Assembly (NCBI GenBank): GCA_964491155.1
Contig: CAZBFG010000001.1
Location: 4,604-68,603, forward strand
DNA from: an uncultured Bdellovibrionales bacterium
Lineage (GTDB): Bacteria; Patescibacteriota; Minisyncoccia; Moranbacterales; UBA1568
Length of the DNA stretch: 64,000 nt
Direction: 5' to 3'
Shown one piece after another: positions 1,098 to 63,839 of this stretch; position 1 is the first letter of the stretch; each line of letters begins with the position of its first letter. The position numbers and the translations under genes were made by a program. A model generated the notes under the pieces. The model had not been told where the DNA came from. It saw only the letters and a list, made by a program, of their open reading frames with translations, and searched no databases.

Positions 1098-2114
1098 TTA
1101 GAAACCACGGAGGACTGGAGAGGTAGCACCGACATGATTTCCTTCGAGACGGTTGTCATTGACTCCTGTACCTAAAATGATACCACCAAATGACTTGAGA
1201 CCATTCGCTGTACGCGCCATGCGAGCGACACCGTAGCGGCCGTTCCCGACCAGCTGTGCTTTCTTCAAGCCGACATTACCGGCAGCACCATAGGCATTGA
1301 CCTCAACACCTTCGCGTTTGTTGTTTCTGATACTGTTTGATTTGGTCCAAACAGAAGCGCCATCAAGAACTACCTTGATACCACTTCCACCATTGCTGTT
1401 GATACGATTCCCTTCAAACCAGGCTTCCATACCGGCTGCCAAATCGATACCGTCACTTTTGTTGGTATGAATGTTACTATTGATAATAACGATGTCGCGC
1501 TTTTCAGAATAAATACCGGCACGGGCGCTTCCTCGCACTTCGACAGCGTCAATCAGTGCGCGGTGTTTCTTGTCGCGCTTGGCGGCATCAATATGGATAC
1601 CATCACGATTACTGTTTTTTACGGTCACTTTGTAAATCTTGGCTTTGGCATCGTCCTCGATACGCACACCATGGCGACCGCCTTCAACCGTCAAAAAGTT
1701 CAGTTCTGTCTGATGCTTCATAGTGACGGTCGGCTTGTCGCCGTTGGTCGACTTGATGACCACATCACCAATATCTTTTTTCTTACCAAAAAGTTTCACG
1801 CCCTTTGGAAGCGTAATATTTTCTTTGTAAGTTCCTTTGGCAATATGAATATCAGTTCCCTCTTTGGCATTCTTGAGGGCCTTACCGATGCTGCGATAGG
1901 GATGATTGGACGTTCCTTCCTCGGAACCCTTGGCATCCTTATCAACATACACTTGCTTGCTCCCACCAAAAACAATAAGTGGGGCAGCGATTAAAAATGT
2001 AAAAGCAAAACCGAGAATTACCTCTCTTTTAAGCCAAAAGTTGCGAACCTGCATAGGGATAAAATCATGAATTTTTAGACCTTGTATCTTATCAAATTTT
2101 AGGCTTTTTGTCAA
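1098..2114 (-). CDS. Secreted or membrane-anchored right-handed parallel beta-helix repeat protein (pectate-lyase or NosD-like fold)
   Basis: N-terminal hydrophobic anchor; repeated ~22-aa G/N/I-rich turns (GNRINSNGGSGIKV, NSNIHTNKSDGIDL). The start at 2114 is TTG and an alternative ATG lies at 2054. Confidence 0.55.
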   Translation of the reverse strand: MTKSLKFDKIQGLKIHDFIPMQVRNFWLKREVILGFAFTFLIAAPLIVFGGSKQVYVDKDAKGSEEGTSNHPYRSIGKALKNAKEGTDIHIAKGTYKENITLPKGVKLFGKKKDIGDVVIKSTNGDKPTVTMKHQTELNFLTVEGGRHGVRIEDDAKAKIYKVTVKNSNRDGIHIDAAKRDKKHRALIDAVEVRGSARAGIYSEKRDIVIINSNIHTNKSDGIDLAAGMEAWFEGNRINSNGGSGIKVVLDGASVWTKSNSIRNNKREGVEVNAYGAAGNVGLKKAQLVGNGRYGVARMARTANGLKSFGGIILGTGVNDNRLEGNHVGATSPVLRGF

Positions 2115-4349: not shown

Positions 4350-4862
4350 TCAGGTTCCCAGGGTGCTATGTTTCACTGTTTGCCTGATGATCGAGTCCCT
4401 CACTCGCTCAAAGTGCTGCCTGGAAAAGCTCCGAAGGACCACTCCGACTTCCAGCGGTGTTTGCAAGACGCTCACCGGTGGACGTAGTCCCTTGTCGCCA
4501 AACCACAAAGGAACAGACCCGCACTCAACCCGAAAGTTCGGGGTCTTCCGGTTTTGGAGCACCATAACCTCGCACTTTGCCAAGTGTTCCCGACTGTAAC
4601 CAACCGGCATGGGCACAAGATGCGGAGCAACCTCTTGTTGCAGATCGGCCATCAGCTTCCGCACCCGCTTCGGTTCTTTCCCACCCGGGATAACAAAATC
4701 CACCGGGACATAGATATCCTCTGCCACACCATCCTTGGGGACATACGTGACCGCCAAGTCCGTGGTAGCACCATGCGCGAAACTGCCAATGGCACCAACG
4801 GCCAAAATGGCCAGAGCGAGAATCGCCCAGCCGAGTACCCGCAGAAAAACACCATTCTTCAT
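4350..4862 (-). CDS. Hypothetical exported or membrane protein, in high-GC cassette 1
   Basis: N-terminal hydrophobic segment (WAILALAILAVGAIGSFAHG); the local GC is clearly higher than in the flanking genes; no recognisable domain. Confidence 0.5.
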   Translation of the reverse strand: MKNGVFLRVLGWAILALAILAVGAIGSFAHGATTDLAVTYVPKDGVAEDIYVPVDFVIPGGKEPKRVRKLMADLQQEVAPHLVPMPVGYSREHLAKCEVMVLQNRKTPNFRVECGSVPLWFGDKGLRPPVSVLQTPLEVGVVLRSFSRQHFERVRDSIIRQTVKHSTLGT

Positions 4863-15508: not shown

Positions 15509-15524
15509 ATATTATATTGGACTA

Positions 15525-15694
15525 GGAAATATCTTCCCTTTTCTTACCCTTTCTTTCCGACGAACATCCCTGACTCGTTCTGCCGAACAGGGAGCTGTCT
15601 TGTACCAAGGTGTCAATCACGCTCGACTGTTACCGGCTCACTCATCACGGATGTGACCGTCGGAAACCGGAGAAAGAAAATGAAAGAATATTTC
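15525..15694. repeat. Copy 1 of a ~175-nt conserved imperfect-palindrome element (candidate structured ncRNA)
   Basis: About 85% identical to 62242-62422; nested helices (ggaaatat/atatttcc, tccgacg/cgtcgga, acatcc/ggatgt) carry compensatory changes between the copies. Confidence 0.7.
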
Positions 15695-15715
15695 CCATGC
15701 GCTTTTCAGGGCTCC

Positions 15716-60468: not shown

Positions 60469-62184
60469 TTATTTCCGCTTCATATCAACCAGTTTGAGCT
60501 GGAGTGAGGTCGAGCCGTTCCAAGTGTTTTCATCGAGAGTAAAGGCCACATCGAGGACGTCGTTTTCTTTGAGGTCTGGGAAAGTCGTCCCGAGGGAAAA
60601 CCCGATAGCGTCAAAACACTTGATGCCACCCTGTGCGACCAAGGAGAGTTTCCAATGCTTACTACCATTGCCCACCAATCGCGCCTCGCGTACCACCATA
60701 TTTTCCAGAGCAAACACCGGTTCGGGATTCCCTTCACCAAAAGGGGCAAAAGCTACTAAATCACGGTAGAGTTTCGGGGTAAGATGTTCCGGCTTCACCA
60801 CAACGTCTACCCACTGCTCCGGCTCGGTCACGACATCGGCCAGCTTTTTCTCCACCAAGGCATTGAACTTTTCATAAAACGCCCCCATGCGGTCATTTCT
60901 GATAGTCATACCGGCTGCTTGGGCATGACCGCCAAACTTTTCAAGCATATCGCCACACTCCTCAATTGCTTCAATAATGTTGAGTTCAGCAATGCTGCGA
61001 AATGATCCGACACTGGTGGTCTCGCCCCGGGTCATGATACAGGTCGGTTTATTAAATTCTCGGGCGATTCGTCCGGCAATAAGACCAACCACTCCATACG
61101 GGAAGTGTTCGTCGGCTGCGAAAATAAATTTCTTGTTGGCAAATTTCTCAAGCGCAATTTTCCGCACCCGATCCGTCACTTCGGTACTTACTTTCTGCCG
61201 CCTGACGTTACAGTCATCGAGTTCGAGCGCGAGGATACGTGCCTCGGCCTGATCCCGTTCCATGAGGAGCTGGTGGGCCAACATGGCATGCGCCATGCGC
61301 GACGCCGCATTTATACGCGGAGCAATCTGAAACCCGATGGTGTGCGCATCCGGTACATGATCCTCATCGATGGGAATCCGCCCGACCGCGAACATTTCCT
61401 GAAACCCCACTCGTTTCGTTTTGGAAAGCACAATCAAACCATATTTGACGATACAGCGGTTCTCACCAACCAGGGGCATAACGTCAGCCACTGTCCCCAC
61501 GGCCACCACATCGAGGAGCCATTTCAATTGCTCAACTTCTTTCGGCAGGTAGCGCTGGTAGAGTGCTTGCGCCACCTTGAAGCTCGTCCCCGCCCCGCAC
61601 AGTTCCCGAAACGGATAGGTCTCGGTCGGCACTTTGGGATTGATAATAGCATATGCTTCGGGCATCACCTCGGGCACATGGTGGTGATCAATGACAATAG
61701 TGGCGATACCGCGCTTTTTGGCCTCGAGAATCACATCGTGATTCATGATGCCACAGTCGAGCGTCAGCACCAGCTTGATACCCTTGCTCTCAAAGAAATC
61801 CACCGCCAGAATATTGAACCCATGGCCCTCATTCACTTTTTCTGGAATATACACCTGGACCGGTACGCCGATAGCCTGCAGTGCCTCGCGCATAATGACG
61901 GACGATGTCACACCATCGGCATCAAAATCTCCAAACACTCCCACTGTTTCCAGATTGACCCGCGCTTCACCGAGCCGCGTGACGATTTTCTCCATTTCCT
62001 TGAATAGAAACGGGTCATGGATATCTCGATCAAAATTGGGCGACAAAAACAACTCCCGCGCCTCCTTGGTCGTATAGCCCCGATGATTGAGGAGTGCCTC
62101 GGTCACAGGATGCCATTCCTCCTGCCCCGTATGCTGTCCAGTATTTTTGGGCAACTCTGTAATTTTATATTTCCACTCTGGCAT
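60469..62184 (-). CDS. recJ: Single-stranded-DNA-specific exonuclease RecJ
   Basis: DHH motifs (DFDADGVTS, IVIDHHH), DHHA1 (GGHAQAAG) and a C-terminal OB domain. Confidence 0.85.
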   Translation of the reverse strand: MPEWKYKITELPKNTGQHTGQEEWHPVTEALLNHRGYTTKEARELFLSPNFDRDIHDPFLFKEMEKIVTRLGEARVNLETVGVFGDFDADGVTSSVIMREALQAIGVPVQVYIPEKVNEGHGFNILAVDFFESKGIKLVLTLDCGIMNHDVILEAKKRGIATIVIDHHHVPEVMPEAYAIINPKVPTETYPFRELCGAGTSFKVAQALYQRYLPKEVEQLKWLLDVVAVGTVADVMPLVGENRCIVKYGLIVLSKTKRVGFQEMFAVGRIPIDEDHVPDAHTIGFQIAPRINAASRMAHAMLAHQLLMERDQAEARILALELDDCNVRRQKVSTEVTDRVRKIALEKFANKKFIFAADEHFPYGVVGLIAGRIAREFNKPTCIMTRGETTSVGSFRSIAELNIIEAIEECGDMLEKFGGHAQAAGMTIRNDRMGAFYEKFNALVEKKLADVVTEPEQWVDVVVKPEHLTPKLYRDLVAFAPFGEGNPEPVFALENMVVREARLVGNGSKHWKLSLVAQGGIKCFDAIGFSLGTTFPDLKENDVLDVAFTLDENTWNGSTSLQLKLVDMKRK

Positions 62185-62241
62185 AAGCTATTTCTTTTCT
62201 AAAGTAAAAAATTCGTTTATCATTGTTATTCGGTGTTTCTC

Positions 62242-62422
62242 GAAAATACTTTCCATTTTCTTACCCTTTCGTGGCCGTCGAACATTTCTGACTCGCTGCA
62301 CCGAACAGGGAGCTGTCCTGTACCAAGTCGTCAGTCACGCTCGACTGTTACCGGTACGCTCATCAAAAATGTTACCGACGGCACCCGGAGAAAGAAAATG
62401 AAAAGTATTTCCAAGAAACTGT
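62242..62422. repeat. Copy 2 of the ~175-nt conserved imperfect-palindrome element (candidate structured ncRNA)
   Basis: Aligns over its whole length with 15525-15694; helix partners change co-ordinately (gccgtcg/cgacggc versus tccgacg/cgtcgga, and acattt/aaatgt versus acatcc/ggatgt). Confidence 0.7.
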
Positions 62423-62699
62423 TCAAACAGACACTATTTCATCAACAAACGTTTGTTTCCTCTAGAAACTTCCAAGCAAGAATCTTTCAAAGTAACTTCT
62501 GAGAGCCCGCACGGGCACGGTTTTTTCGAAGAAAAAGAGTGCGGGCATAAGGGTAGGGCGCTTCGCCACGCCGGGGCGAGCGACCGGTACTTTGGAAGGT
62601 TGCTTGCTTGGGAAGTTTCTACATTTTATAAAGGAAAGTCTTCATTGCAGAAGCACTCAAATAACATCCCAAAAACAAACAGTCCTTCTAGTCTAACAC

Positions 62700-62747
62700 A
62701 AAATAAAAACCCGCGCTCTCAATAATCGAACGCGGGGATATCTCAAG
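62700..62747 (-). terminator. Intrinsic terminator after dnaJ
   Basis: On the minus strand, cccgcg-ttcgattattgagag-cgcggg is followed by tttttatttt. Confidence 0.6.
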
Positions 62748-62750
62748 AAA

Positions 62751-63839
62751 TCAACGTTTCAAATCCCGCAAAGCCTCAATCAAGCGTTTTTCTTCGGAAG
62801 AAAGCTTTTTAGGAACAGCCAGCGTCACAGAAACCAAGTGATCGCCACGACCATACCGCTGCAGGTGTGGGATACCCTTACCTTTGATCCGAAAGACCTC
62901 GCCTGGCTGGGTGCCAGCGGGAATTTTCATGATCACTTCGCCCTCAATAGTCTCAATAGAAACTTTGGCTCCGAGCGTCGCCTCAGTGAAACTCATAGCA
63001 TACTGCGATACGATATCATCAGCGCGCCGAAGCAGCGTCGCATGCGGTCGCACATGAACATTGACATACAAATCCCCCGGGCGACTGCCAGCTTCTCCGG
63101 CGGCACCATGACCCCCGAGCGACAGCGTCTGTCCATCGCTGATACCAGCCGGAATATCAATCGAAACCTTTTCTTCGCGCTGCGTGCGACCGGCACCATG
63201 ACAGGTACCGCACTGATCAGCATAGGTCTTGCCTCGTCCCTGGCAACGATCACAGAGGACCGCTTGTTGCATAGTTCCAAAGATACTCTGCATCGTGCGC
63301 CGCACCTGCCCCGCTCCCTGACACTGTGAACACGTTGACTCTTTGGATCCTGGTTTGCCGCCCGTTCCATGGCAAGTGTCGCATTCGGACATTTTCCGTA
63401 GCGTAACTTCACGTTTGGCTCCACGCACCATCTCTTCAAAAGAAATCTCTACGTCAATCTGAATATCCGCACCCGCGCGTGAACGACTACGACCGGCACG
63501 TCCTCCAAAAAGATCAGAAAAGACATCCTCAAAGCCGGAACCATTGAAGTCGAATCCTTGGCCTCCATTGAAACCACTAAAATCGAAACCACCGAAACCT
63601 TGGCCAGCGCCCGGGCCACCCTGACCCTGGGTATGATAATCCTGGCCAGTCTGGTCGTAGCGAGCACGCTTTTCTTGATTACTGAGTACCTGATAAGCCT
63701 CATTGATCTCTTTGAACTTCTTTTCGTCTCCTGTTCCTTTGTCCGGGTGGTACTTGTGCGCCAGCTTGCGAAAAGCCTTTTTGATATCGTCTTCCGACGC
63801 GGACCGTGACACTCCGAGCGTACTGTAGTAATCAGCCAT
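62751..63839 (-). CDS. dnaJ: Chaperone DnaJ
   Basis: J domain with HPD (YHPDK), a G/F-rich region, four CxxCxGxG zinc-finger repeats, and a C-terminal substrate-binding domain. Confidence 0.9.
   Translation of the reverse strand: MADYYSTLGVSRSASEDDIKKAFRKLAHKYHPDKGTGDEKKFKEINEAYQVLSNQEKRARYDQTGQDYHTQGQGGPGAGQGFGGFDFSGFNGGQGFDFNGSGFEDVFSDLFGGRAGRSRSRAGADIQIDVEISFEEMVRGAKREVTLRKMSECDTCHGTGGKPGSKESTCSQCQGAGQVRRTMQSIFGTMQQAVLCDRCQGRGKTYADQCGTCHGAGRTQREEKVSIDIPAGISDGQTLSLGGHGAAGEAGSRPGDLYVNVHVRPHATLLRRADDIVSQYAMSFTEATLGAKVSIETIEGEVIMKIPAGTQPGEVFRIKGKGIPHLQRYGRGDHLVSVTLAVPKKLSSEEKRLIEALRDLKR

What the first reader, a model, noticed from the sequence alone, without database searches (positions are those of the whole stretch)
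62440..62640. A second nested-helix region in the same recJ-dnaJ spacer; together the two form about 520 nt of highly structured non-coding DNA
Between the dnaJ terminator (62700-62747) and copy 2 of the element there is a 20-bp long-range inverted repeat: tctagaaacttccaagcaag at 62461-62480 and cttgcttgggaagtttctac at 62603-62622. Inside it is a further pair, ttcaaagtaac with ggtactttgg. There is also a perfect GC stem gcccgcac...gtgcgggc (62505-62546) and a 10-bp palindrome caaacgtttg (62447-62456). No ORF with protein-like composition occupies this region. A spacer this large is unusual in a genome that is otherwise packed with 0-50 nt gaps, and it could be a large ncRNA or a cis-regulatory leader for recJ. 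Eye-scanning for RNase P, tmRNA and SRP consensus motifs found none.
Basis: seen in the sequence. Interest (0 to 1): 0.55.

Follow-up and report, generated by a model that had tools for sequence, protein, structure and literature searches.

The report
New dispersed three-way-junction repeat element
The hairpin-rich stretch upstream of recJ is real: it is one copy of a previously uncatalogued ~160-nt three-way-junction element scattered between housekeeping genes of Moraniibacteriota (CPR bacteria), and it is not a recJ-specific leader.

Summary
Confirmed. Window 62461-62622 folds into a long closing helix plus two inner hairpins (z = -5.7 on the + strand, -5.1 on the - strand). It has no Rfam match.

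It belongs to a family. I found 41 distinct copies in related MAGs and metagenome contigs. 48 of the 55 modelled base pairs show compensatory changes, and 91% of cells are paired against 66% in shuffles. Three unpaired features are conserved: an 8-nt bulge (GGGCACGG here; core GCAYGGU), a CGCYGG hairpin loop and a bulged G. All 41 copies fold better on the CAAGAAU strand. Here that is the + strand, antisense to dnaJ and recJ.

Every copy is intergenic, lies next to unrelated housekeeping genes, and occurs in either orientation. None has a conserved promoter, terminator, terminal repeat or target duplication. In close relatives the dnaJ-recJ spacer runs from 71 to about 2800 nt, and the element is absent, present, inverted or doubled. 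Yet copies persist at orthologous sites between genomes whose flanking proteins are only 61-73% identical.

A second element-plus-neighbour block lies 6.4 kb beyond the window on the same contig.

Best reading: a REP/BIME/ERIC-like, structure-constrained, semi-mobile intergenic module that acts as a folded single strand. The recJ-leader reading is not supported. Function is unknown.

The parts
62461..62622 (+). Element B, type I: the whole three-way-junction element. The structured strand is the window + strand.
   Evidence: The covariance model hits 62463-62620 on the + strand at 159.7 bits, E = 3.6e-39. The reverse strand scores only 35.8 bits.
62464..62494 (+). P1, 5' arm. It carries the family-wide CAAGAAUCUUUC segment at 62477-62488.
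   Evidence: Of 31 P1 pairs, 25 show changes on both sides across 39 distinct sequences. CAAGAAU is nearly invariant.
62588..62620 (+). P1, 3' arm. It carries GGAAGGUUGCUUG, with the conserved bulged G at 62602 and conserved G.U wobble positions.
   Evidence: Pair 22/240 is UG 26, UA 11, CG 2. Pair 26/236 is UG 13, UA 12, CG 10.
62500..62551 (+). P2: outer and inner helix (62500-62512 with 62539-62551) enclosing the bulge and hairpin P2b (62521-62537).
   Evidence: All 13 P2a pairs and 6 of 7 P2b pairs have compensatory changes.
62513..62520 (+). Conserved 8-nt asymmetric bulge, GGGCACGG here (family core GCAYGGU).
   Evidence: G, C, A, G (G) were invariant in 32 sequences, although this motif was not part of the search pattern. 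It is also conserved in types II and III.
62557..62585 (+). P3 hairpin. The stem is hypervariable. The loop is the conserved ACGCCGG (62568-62574; family CGCYGG).
   Evidence: All 4 modelled P3 pairs covary and 97.9% of cells are paired. The stem sequence is almost completely replaced between W, L002, L004 and L010, while the loop is kept.
62420..62460 (.). Central spacer between elements A and B. It contains the palindrome caaacgtttg (62446-62455).
   Evidence: The 26-nt segment GAGGAAACAAACGTTTGTTGATGAAA is identical in the second B-A block of the same contig, although the blocks are only 78% identical overall. It is also conserved next to type-I copies in L004, L040, L028 and L023.
62230..62425 (-). 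An unrelated rod-like structured element, head-to-head with B. Its structured strand is the - strand.
   Evidence: It folds at -96.8 kcal/mol on the - strand against -67.2 on the + strand, z = -10.5. Seven copies give 69 predicted pairs, 31 with compensatory changes. nhmmer finds further copies.
15520..15705 (-). Element A, solo copy (copy 1). It lies between rseP and a terminator-like hairpin.
   Evidence: 83% identical to 62244-62412. nhmmer E = 2.8e-54.
62700..62747 (-). Intrinsic terminator of dnaJ. It is the only part of the spacer conserved in nearly all close relatives.
   Evidence: Sequence. It is conserved in L002-L008.
60469..62184 (-). recJ
   Evidence: Pfam DHH, DHHA1 and RecJ_OB.
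62751..63839 (-). dnaJ
   Evidence: Pfam DnaJ, DnaJ_CXXCXGXG and DnaJ_C.

Best explanation
The region is one copy of a dispersed, low-copy family of ~150-165-nt intergenic elements in Moraniibacteriota.

Shown:
- Each copy folds as a single strand into a three-way junction. P1 is a 30-45-bp imperfect closing helix whose inner part is sequence-conserved (5' CAAGAAUYUUYC / 3' GRAAGRUUGCUUG, with a bulged G and G.U pairs). P2 carries a conserved 8-nt bulge (core GCAYGGU). P3 is capped by a CGCYGG loop.
- The stems evolve by compensatory change.
- The same strand is favoured in every copy.
- Copies sit only between genes, in either orientation.
- Copies are kept at orthologous sites over long divergence, but are also gained, lost, inverted, duplicated and clustered with other hairpin elements such as element A. 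This gives mosaics like REP/BIME or ERIC arrays.

Inferred:
- The element works as a folded single strand, most likely RNA made by read-through or antisense transcription.
- The bulge, loop and asymmetric P1 form the docking site for a trans-acting factor: a processing nuclease, a structure-specific binding protein or a recombinase.
- It acts locally on transcript boundaries or on its own propagation, not on recJ specifically.
For: Structure:
- z = -5.7 and -5.1.
- A covariance model built from 11 type-I copies finds 52 sense hits above 40 bits, 41 of them distinct, at E from 1e-7 to 1e-39.
- 91.2% of cells are paired against 66.3% in shuffles and 39-54% with partners slid. 48 of 55 pairs change on both sides. 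0 of 500 shuffles reach the observed values.

Strand:
- 41 of 41 copies fold better on the CAAGAAU strand, mean difference -10.8 kcal/mol.
- G.U 123 against A.C 35 in modelled pairs.

Conserved unpaired motifs.

A family, not a leader:
- Copies flank many unrelated housekeeping genes.
- Orientation relative to co-directional neighbours is 16 antisense to 8 sense.
- Orientation relative to the inferred leading strand is 26 to 15.

Turnover:
- The dnaJ-recJ spacer is 71 to about 2800 nt, and the element is absent, direct, inverted or doubled.
- L010 has a ~260-nt insertion carrying a copy in the recJ-rnhA spacer, which is about 25 nt in W, L009 and L012.
- A second B-A block, 78% identical, lies between murJ and lepA on the same contig.

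Persistence:
- A copy lies upstream of recO in L050 and L051 (RecO 61% identical).
- A copy lies upstream of dnaJ in L013 and L030 (DnaJ 73% identical).
- In both cases the orientation is the same, nucleotide identity is 70-72%, and the stem changes are compensatory.

No known family: Rfam 15 gives nothing for the window copy or across 18 related loci that hold copies of all three types.
Against: - No transcript data. No conserved promoter lies upstream and no terminator downstream. Many copies sit 11-50 nt from genes on both sides. It is therefore unclear how the favoured strand is expressed when it is antisense to both neighbours.
- Copies within one genome are 47-85% identical, there is only one copy in 64 kb, and termini are not conserved. 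That is unlike active REPIN or MITE populations.
- Selection for loops at each site over long divergence argues for a host function rather than a merely selfish repeat.
- The covariation counts were made on an alignment fitted to the model, so they lean towards the structure.
- The metagenome sample was drawn with a pattern that fixed three of the conserved motifs.
Confidence: 0.5

Rival explanations
1. A genuine trans-acting small RNA gene family. Each copy would be transcribed from its CAAGAAU strand. Its paired 5' and 3' ends would protect it from exonucleases. The bulge and loop would bind a protein partner or form a catalytic core. In the window, B and A would be a divergent sRNA pair driven from the conserved central spacer.
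For: - Strand-specific constraint in 41 of 41 copies.
- Conserved unpaired nucleotides across three subtypes.
- Copies retained at orthologous sites with compensatory evolution.
- A 26-nt central segment between the 5' ends of A and B is identical in two paralogous blocks that are 78% identical overall.
- The upstream neighbour is divergent in 22 of 33 cases.
Against: - No sigma-70-like promoter in the spacer.
- No positional -10 signal upstream and no terminator or U-run downstream in 41 copies.
- Flanks of only 11-50 nt in many copies.
- L010 lacks the central segment.
- Several copies carry a nested mini-hairpin inside the conserved bulge.
Confidence: 0.27
2. A non-autonomous mobile DNA element, moved as single-stranded DNA by a structure-specific HUH/Y1 transposase or a tyrosine recombinase (REPIN-RAYT, IS200/IS605-PATE or attC-like). 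The bulged G, the bulge and the loop would be the recognition determinants.
For: - Presence/absence and orientation polymorphism among close relatives.
- An insertion in L010 flanked by the imperfect direct repeat TGAAAAAA(A)TC.
- Duplication of the exact B-spacer-A block within one genome.
- A strand-specific fold with a conserved extrahelical base.
- Accessory genes next to the element in the same spacer: a phage GP30.3 gene in L004, a receiver-domain gene in L013 and a 193-aa ORF in L052.
Against: - No conserved termini and no consistent target duplication.
- Low copy number and high divergence within a genome.
- Only a 26:15 orientation bias relative to the leading strand.
- The R-box consensus of attC is not met and there are no cassette arrays.
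- No transposase or integrase was seen in the parts of the window and loci that I annotated.
- Long-term retention at each site under selection.
Confidence: 0.15
3. A cis-regulatory leader or riboswitch controlling recJ.
For: An element of this family lies upstream of recJ in most relatives, down to about 70% RecJ identity (W, L002, L004, L007, L008, L010, L023, L013, L052).
Against: - The favoured strand is antisense to recJ in the window.
- Orientation differs between relatives, and the element is absent in L003, L005 and L011.
- Most family members flank unrelated genes.
Confidence: 0.03
4. Chance hairpins, terminator remnants or a small protein-coding gene.
For: AT-rich spacers often contain hairpins. 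An ORF of 90 aa overlaps the region.
Against: - z-scores below -5.
- Covariance-model E-values down to 1e-39 in unrelated contigs.
- Compensatory changes in 48 of 55 pairs.
- Length differences between copies that are not multiples of three.
- No Pfam match.
- No U-tract after the stem.
Confidence: 0.01

Closest known systems
ERIC / IRU (enterobacterial repetitive intergenic consensus) elements
   Same: Both are imperfect palindromes of about 130-160 nt found only between genes, in either orientation, at modest copy number. Both are kept at orthologous sites, and their hairpin is preserved by compensatory change. (The ERIC properties are from my own knowledge of the literature, not tested here.)
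   Different: There is no sequence similarity. This element has a branched three-way-junction apex with sequence-conserved bulge and loop, a strict favoured strand in all 41 copies, three deeply diverged subtypes, and a different phylum (CPR).
REP / BIME mosaics and REPINs mobilised by RAYT transposases
   Same: Both are intergenic hairpin units that cluster in mosaics with other unit types and alternate in orientation. In both, structure matters more than sequence in the stems. Both are inherited vertically over long periods.
   Different: REP units are 20-40 nt with a GTAG-type 5' tetranucleotide, and REPINs are near-identical populations of tens to hundreds of copies. Here the units are 150-165 nt, low-copy and 47-85% identical within a genome, with no GTAG rule and no RAYT seen.
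MITEs such as the Correia/NEMIS, RUP and BOX elements
   Same: Small size, no coding capacity, intergenic location, long terminal complementarity, and presence/absence polymorphism between strains.
   Different: In MITEs the termini are the most conserved part and are flanked by target-site duplications. Here the termini are the most variable part, the inner helix and loops are conserved, and no consistent duplication was found.
Integron attC sites
   Same: Both are recognised by structure rather than sequence. Both are imperfect palindromes of 60-140 nt with extrahelical bases and one recombinogenic strand, and long attC sites can have branched tips. Accessory genes sit next to some copies here.
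   Different: The RYYYAAC/GTTRRRY boxes are not present (the arms read CAAGAAU and GUUGCUU). There are no cassette arrays and no integrase, and the neighbours are core housekeeping genes.
Orphan structured RNA motifs found by comparative genomics (Rfam 'Gene' or 'Cis-reg' motifs of unknown function)
   Same: A covariation-supported multi-helix fold with conserved unpaired nucleotides and no known function.
   Different: It is not in Rfam 15. Its orientation relative to neighbours is not fixed, and it shows turnover like a repeat element.

Membership tests
Any Rfam 15 family (including RNase P, tmRNA, SRP, 6S, riboswitches, self-cleaving ribozymes) | A match to the family covariance model at or near the gathering score | tested here: not met
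   The whole window at gathering threshold gives only 2 tRNAs. For 62000-62900 at E up to 10, the best hits are 13-24 bits against gathering scores of 35.6-97. Eighteen related loci holding types I-III give only one tRNA.
Cis-regulatory leader / riboswitch of recJ | A fixed position and sense orientation upstream of the regulated gene across relatives | tested here: not met
   Antisense in W, L002, L004 and L008. Sense in L007, L010 and L023. Absent in L003, L005 and L011.
Cis-regulatory leader / riboswitch of recJ | Association with one gene family or pathway | tested here: not met
   About 24 distinct sites have diverse housekeeping neighbours. The apparent excess of recombination/repair neighbours is post hoc and weak.
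REP / REPIN (RAYT-mobilised) | A short (20-40 nt) palindromic unit with a conserved 5' GTAG-type tetranucleotide, paired as an inverted doublet | tested here: not met
   The unit is 150-165 nt with two unlike inner hairpins. GUAG or GCAG occurs in the P2-P3 junction of types I and III only.
REP / REPIN (RAYT-mobilised) | Many near-identical copies per genome | tested here: not met
   One copy in the 64-kb window with filters off. Two copies in 74 kb of the contig. Copies from the same genome are 47-85% identical.
REP / REPIN (RAYT-mobilised) | A cognate RAYT (Y1 transposase) gene in the genome | not testable with these tools
   Only fragments of the genomes are held. No such gene was seen among the genes I annotated.
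MITE | Conserved terminal inverted repeats at the very ends | tested here: not met
   The outer 10-16 bp of P1 differ between copies, while the inner helix is conserved.
MITE | A target-site duplication of fixed length | tested here: inconclusive
   No recurrent duplication at the stem ends. One insertion in L010 is flanked by an imperfect ~10-nt direct repeat.
Integron attC | R'' RYYYAAC and R' GTTRRRY boxes | tested here: not met
   The arms read CAAGAAU and GGUUGCUUG, which share only a few positions with the R'' and R' consensus boxes (sequence; consensus from my own knowledge).
Integron attC | Tandem, co-oriented cassette arrays next to an intI gene | tested here: not met
   Copies are single or in mixed orientation, between core genes.
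Intrinsic terminator | A G+C-rich stem followed by a U-tract | tested here: not met
   The scan finds none in the element. The 3' flanks of 41 copies lack U-runs. dnaJ has its own terminator at 62700-62747.
Hammerhead-type three-way-junction ribozyme | Conserved CUGAUGA ... GAAA core at the junction | tested here: not met
   The junction nucleotides are not conserved, and CUGAGAG in W is absent from other copies. There is no Rfam hit. Self-cleavage itself cannot be tested here.
Proposed new family (element B) | P1 with CAAGAAU / UUGCUUG and a bulged G; a GCAYGGU bulge in P2; a CGCYGG loop on P3 | tested here: met
   The window copy scores 159.7 bits against model R1 and carries all the motifs (coordinates are in the parts list).

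The most novel reading that the evidence does not exclude
Element B is a new class of functional structured RNA specific to a clade of CPR bacteria. It would be a multi-copy, strand-specific three-way-junction RNA whose conserved bulge and loop form the core of a ribonucleoprotein or a ribozyme. It may be paired with element A as a divergently transcribed unit, and may be linked to recombination and repair genes (recJ, recO, recA, ruvX, uvrA are among its neighbours).
Probability: 0.25. Interest if true: 0.75.

Novelty: new variant of a known kind. Interest (0 to 1): 0.58.

Why it matters
CPR/Patescibacteria have tiny, tightly packed genomes, and almost nothing is known about their non-coding repertoire. 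This work found a family with 41 distinct copies in the sequences searched, three subtypes, very strong covariation, conserved unpaired motifs and a strict favoured strand, and it is absent from Rfam. Such a family is either a new functional RNA or the first well-defined REP/ERIC-like repeat system in this radiation. Either way it provides:
- a ready covariance model for annotating these genomes;
- a marker for intergenic turnover hot spots, such as the dnaJ-recJ spacer;
- a concrete target for metatranscriptomics and for protein-partner searches.

Tried and rejected
- **Rfam** at gathering and permissive thresholds on the window, on both copies of element A, and on 18 loci: nothing.
- **Bulge-loop pseudoknot** (RGC with GCY), suggested by RNAalifold. 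I rejected it because copies found without the pattern (L044, L050 5745, L038 1574) change one side only.
- **Promoter and terminator searches** around the window copy and 41 flanks: no signal.
- **Terminal repeats and target duplications:** none consistent.
- **Insertion into pre-existing terminator hairpins**, as an explanation for the variable outer stems. I rejected it because the empty recJ-rnhA site has no hairpin. Gene conversion limited to the homologous core explains the L030 pair better.
- **Viral contigs:** no copy.
- **Orientation** relative to transcription and to the leading strand: only 2:1, not significant.
- **Literature searches** for CPR structured RNAs, MITEs or REPINs: nothing relevant.
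- **TIGR-Tas arrays** (PMC12045711, abstract only) were considered. They are tandem guide-RNA arrays, unlike these solitary 160-nt units.
- **A single MAFFT alignment of all three subtypes** was structurally inconsistent inside P2 and P3, so I built the model from type I only.
- **One look-up failed:** the protein at window 1467-1994 is not on record.

Full report
**Setting.** dnaJ (62751-63839) and recJ (60469-62184) both lie on the minus strand and are confirmed by Pfam. The 566-nt spacer between them is the longest gap in the window; most gaps are under 130 nt. The window comes from a 117-kb metagenome contig (ENA ERZ27247837, k141_762857). The closest genomes found through RecJ are mostly titled Candidatus Moraniibacteriota MAGs; others carry the title 'uncultured Bdellovibrionales'.

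**Checking the observation.** Only the palindrome is one base off; it is at 62446-62455. The repeat finder recovers the long-range arms. Region 62440-62640 folds at -77.8 kcal/mol on the + strand (z = -5.72) and at -67.3 on the - strand (z = -5.14). No shuffle did as well. The fold has three parts:
- a long closing helix (P1);
- a hairpin with a large 5' bulge and an inner hairpin (P2);
- a second hairpin (P3).

The neighbouring 'copy 2' element (62230-62425; I call it A) is a separate rod-like fold. It strongly prefers the minus strand: -96.8 against -67.2, z = -10.5. Its other copy is at 15520-15705. The spacer therefore holds two modules on opposite strands, not one large RNA.

**Known families.** Rfam 15 finds nothing beyond two tRNAs elsewhere in the window. 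A permissive scan of the spacer gives only noise. The overlapping ORFs have no Pfam match.

**Relatives.** In 22 loci fetched through RecJ, the dnaJ-recJ spacer ranges from 71 to about 2800 nt.

| State of the target element (B) | Loci |
|---|---|
| Absent (terminator only) | L003, L005, L011 |
| Same orientation as the window | L002, L004 |
| Inverted | L007, L010, L023 |
| Joined or replaced by a diverged relative of B | L004, L007, L008, L013/L014 |

Aligning the first six copies showed near-identical inner P1, bulge and loop, but almost completely replaced and still complementary P3, P2 and outer P1 stems. All copies folded better on the strand equivalent to the window + strand.

**Family census.** I searched with a pattern built from three conserved segments: CAAGAATYYT, then 70-100 nt, CGCYGG, 12-30 nt, ARRRTTGCTTG.
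- It hit 37 metagenome stretches, of which four proved false on folding (L043, L054, L057, L059).
- It hit no viral contig.
- The GCAYGG bulge was not in the pattern, yet it was invariant in the 32-sequence alignment.

Three subtypes emerged. I built a covariance model from 11 type-I copies with a hand-set structure. It found 52 sense hits above 40 bits, 41 of them distinct. These included types II and III and nine copies the pattern had missed.

On the model-fitted alignment of 39 distinct sequences:
- 91.2% of cells pair, against 66.3% in shuffles and 39-54% with partners slid;
- 48 of 55 pairs change on both sides;
- all four helices covary.

This alignment leans towards the structure by construction, but the margin is very large.

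All 41 copies fold better on the CAAGAAU strand, by 10.8 kcal/mol on average. G.U outnumbers A.C by 123 to 35. Several pairs show the classic CG / UG / UA series. The constraint therefore acts on one single strand, RNA or ssDNA.

**Context.**
- Every copy is intergenic, often with only 11-50 nt to the genes on either side.
- Neighbours are ordinary housekeeping genes. Examples are a class II aaRS and TGT, recA and an SLT-domain gene, nrdD and nrdG, AhpC and an M17 peptidase, BipA and a T4SS pilin gene, GT2 and GT4, MreB, EF-G, RecO, RuvX and UvrA.
- Orientation relative to co-directional neighbours is 16 antisense to 8 sense. Copies also sit in divergent (6) and convergent (3) spacers.
- Relative to the leading strand, inferred from gene bias and GC skew, the split is 26 to 15. 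Neither bias is significant.
- There is no conserved promoter upstream, no terminator downstream, no conserved terminus and no recurrent target duplication.
- The window holds a single copy even with filters off.
- Ten more kilobases of the same contig revealed a second copy at 144 bits between murJ and lepA. It is again followed by the same central spacer and an A copy. The whole B-spacer-A block is 78% identical to the window's block. A 26-nt central segment is identical between the two.

**Turnover and persistence.**

*Evidence for mobility or rearrangement:*
- the polymorphic dnaJ-recJ spacer, with different insertion points in L008 and L023;
- a ~260-nt insertion carrying a copy in the recJ-rnhA spacer of L010, a spacer that is about 25 nt in W, L009 and L012;
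- the duplicated B-A block;
- nested mini-hairpins (CCTGCC-N4-GGCAGG) inside the conserved bulge of three copies;
- a pair of copies with an identical 115-nt core but unrelated outer stems, best explained by gene conversion confined to the homologous core.

*Evidence for long-term retention under selection:*
- a copy upstream of recO in two genomes whose RecO proteins are 61% identical;
- a copy upstream of dnaJ in two genomes with 73% identical DnaJ;
- in both cases the orientation is the same, nucleotide identity is 70-72%, stem changes are compensatory and the loops are intact.

**Interpretation.** The identity is well supported. The region is a member of a new, dispersed family of three-way-junction elements whose fold is under selection on one strand. 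The mechanism is inferred.

A recJ leader is excluded by orientation, by absence in close relatives and by the diversity of neighbours.

The behaviour most resembles REP/BIME and ERIC-type intergenic repeats. That comparison rests on my own knowledge of those systems. The shared traits are mosaics of unlike hairpin units, either orientation, persistence at sites and occasional gain, loss or inversion.

The element differs from every such family in four ways: its size, its branched apex, its sequence-specific bulge and loop, and its low copy number with deep divergence.

Two more specific readings remain open:
- **A true trans-acting RNA gene family.** This is favoured by site-by-site selection and by the conserved central segment between A and B. 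It is weakened by the lack of promoter or terminator signals and by the tight flanks.
- **A non-autonomous element moved as ssDNA by a structure-specific enzyme.** This is favoured by the strand specificity, the extrahelical base and the polymorphism. It is weakened by the variable termini, the low copy number, the weak orientation bias and the absence of any candidate enzyme.

Transcript mapping and a whole-genome census would separate them.

**Novelty.** There is no Rfam family. The full-text searches found no description. I rate it a new variant of a known kind, the dispersed structured intergenic repeat. There is a real chance, about one in four, that it is a new functional RNA class.

Noticed in passing
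window 62230-62425 (-), 15520-15705 (-); L061 4870-5056: Element A is a ~190-nt rod-like structured element with a strong minus-strand preference. Seven copies give 69 predicted pairs, 31 of them with compensatory changes. It has no Rfam match. It lies next to type-I B at three distinct sites (dnaJ|recJ, murJ|lepA, upstream of ruvX). Two of these are head-to-head and one (L025) is tail-to-tail. There is also one solo copy downstream of rseP.
   Followed up: partly
window 62435-62460; L061 about 4828-4853: A 26-nt segment (GAGGAAACAAACGTTTGTTGATGAAA on the minus strand) contains the palindrome AACAAACGTTTGTT. It is identical between two B-A blocks that are otherwise 78% identical, and it is conserved next to type-I B in L004, L040, L028 and L023. 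It could be an operator, a bidirectional promoter or a 5' mini-hairpin.
   Followed up: partly
L010 2323-2535; L007 2594-2775; L032 9362-9529: A tiny hairpin, CCTGCC-N4-GGCAGG, is inserted next to the CATG of the conserved GCAUGG bulge in three B copies. In L032 it is flanked by duplicated CATG. It looks like a separate mini-palindrome that inserts at CATG.
   Followed up: no
L004 1918-2376; L013 2237-2791; L052 3110-3691; L023 1359-1790: The dnaJ-recJ spacer is also a hot spot for gene insertion in relatives. L004 has a phage GP30.3-family gene, L013/L014 a receiver-domain gene, and L052 and L023 have ORFs with no family. Each lies next to a B element.
   Followed up: partly
L004, L005, L006, L008: first 100-200 nt after recJ: The recJ-rnhA spacer is about 25 nt in the window. 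In several relatives it carries other, unrelated long hairpins. In L004 the last 17 nt of recJ form one arm of such an inverted repeat.
   Followed up: no
flanks of B copies in L025, L026, L024, L036, L045, L050, L051, L010: Eight of about 24 distinct sites have a recombination or repair gene as a neighbour (recJ, recO, recA, ruvX, uvrA twice, a PolB-type exonuclease, rnhA). nrdDG and a NUDIX gene are also neighbours. None of the first 20 window genes I annotated is of this kind. The excess is post hoc, and the sample is partly biased by the query locus.
   Followed up: partly
L030 186-337 and 2120-2271; L052 2908-3059; L031 12826-12961: Two copies 1.8 kb apart in inverted orientation share a 100% identical 115-nt core but have unrelated, self-complementary outer stems. 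In L052/L031 the 5' arm has become the perfect complement of the 3' arm (CAAGCAACC), as expected from quasi-palindrome correction.
   Followed up: partly
L009 about 300-2900: A high-GC stretch with a run of N sits between dnaJ and recJ in this MAG. It is probably a chimeric assembly rather than a real insertion.
   Followed up: no
L028 and L010 copies of element A: A 24-nt insertion (GGCCAGCCTCGCCGAGTCTAGGYGG) is shared by the A copies of L028 and L010 at the same internal position.
   Followed up: no
record titles of L002-L009, L011, L014: Several MAGs whose RecJ is 72-91% identical to the window's are titled 'uncultured Bdellovibrionales'. Their closest relatives are titled Candidatus Moraniibacteriota, so the first label is probably a taxonomic mislabel.
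   Followed up: no
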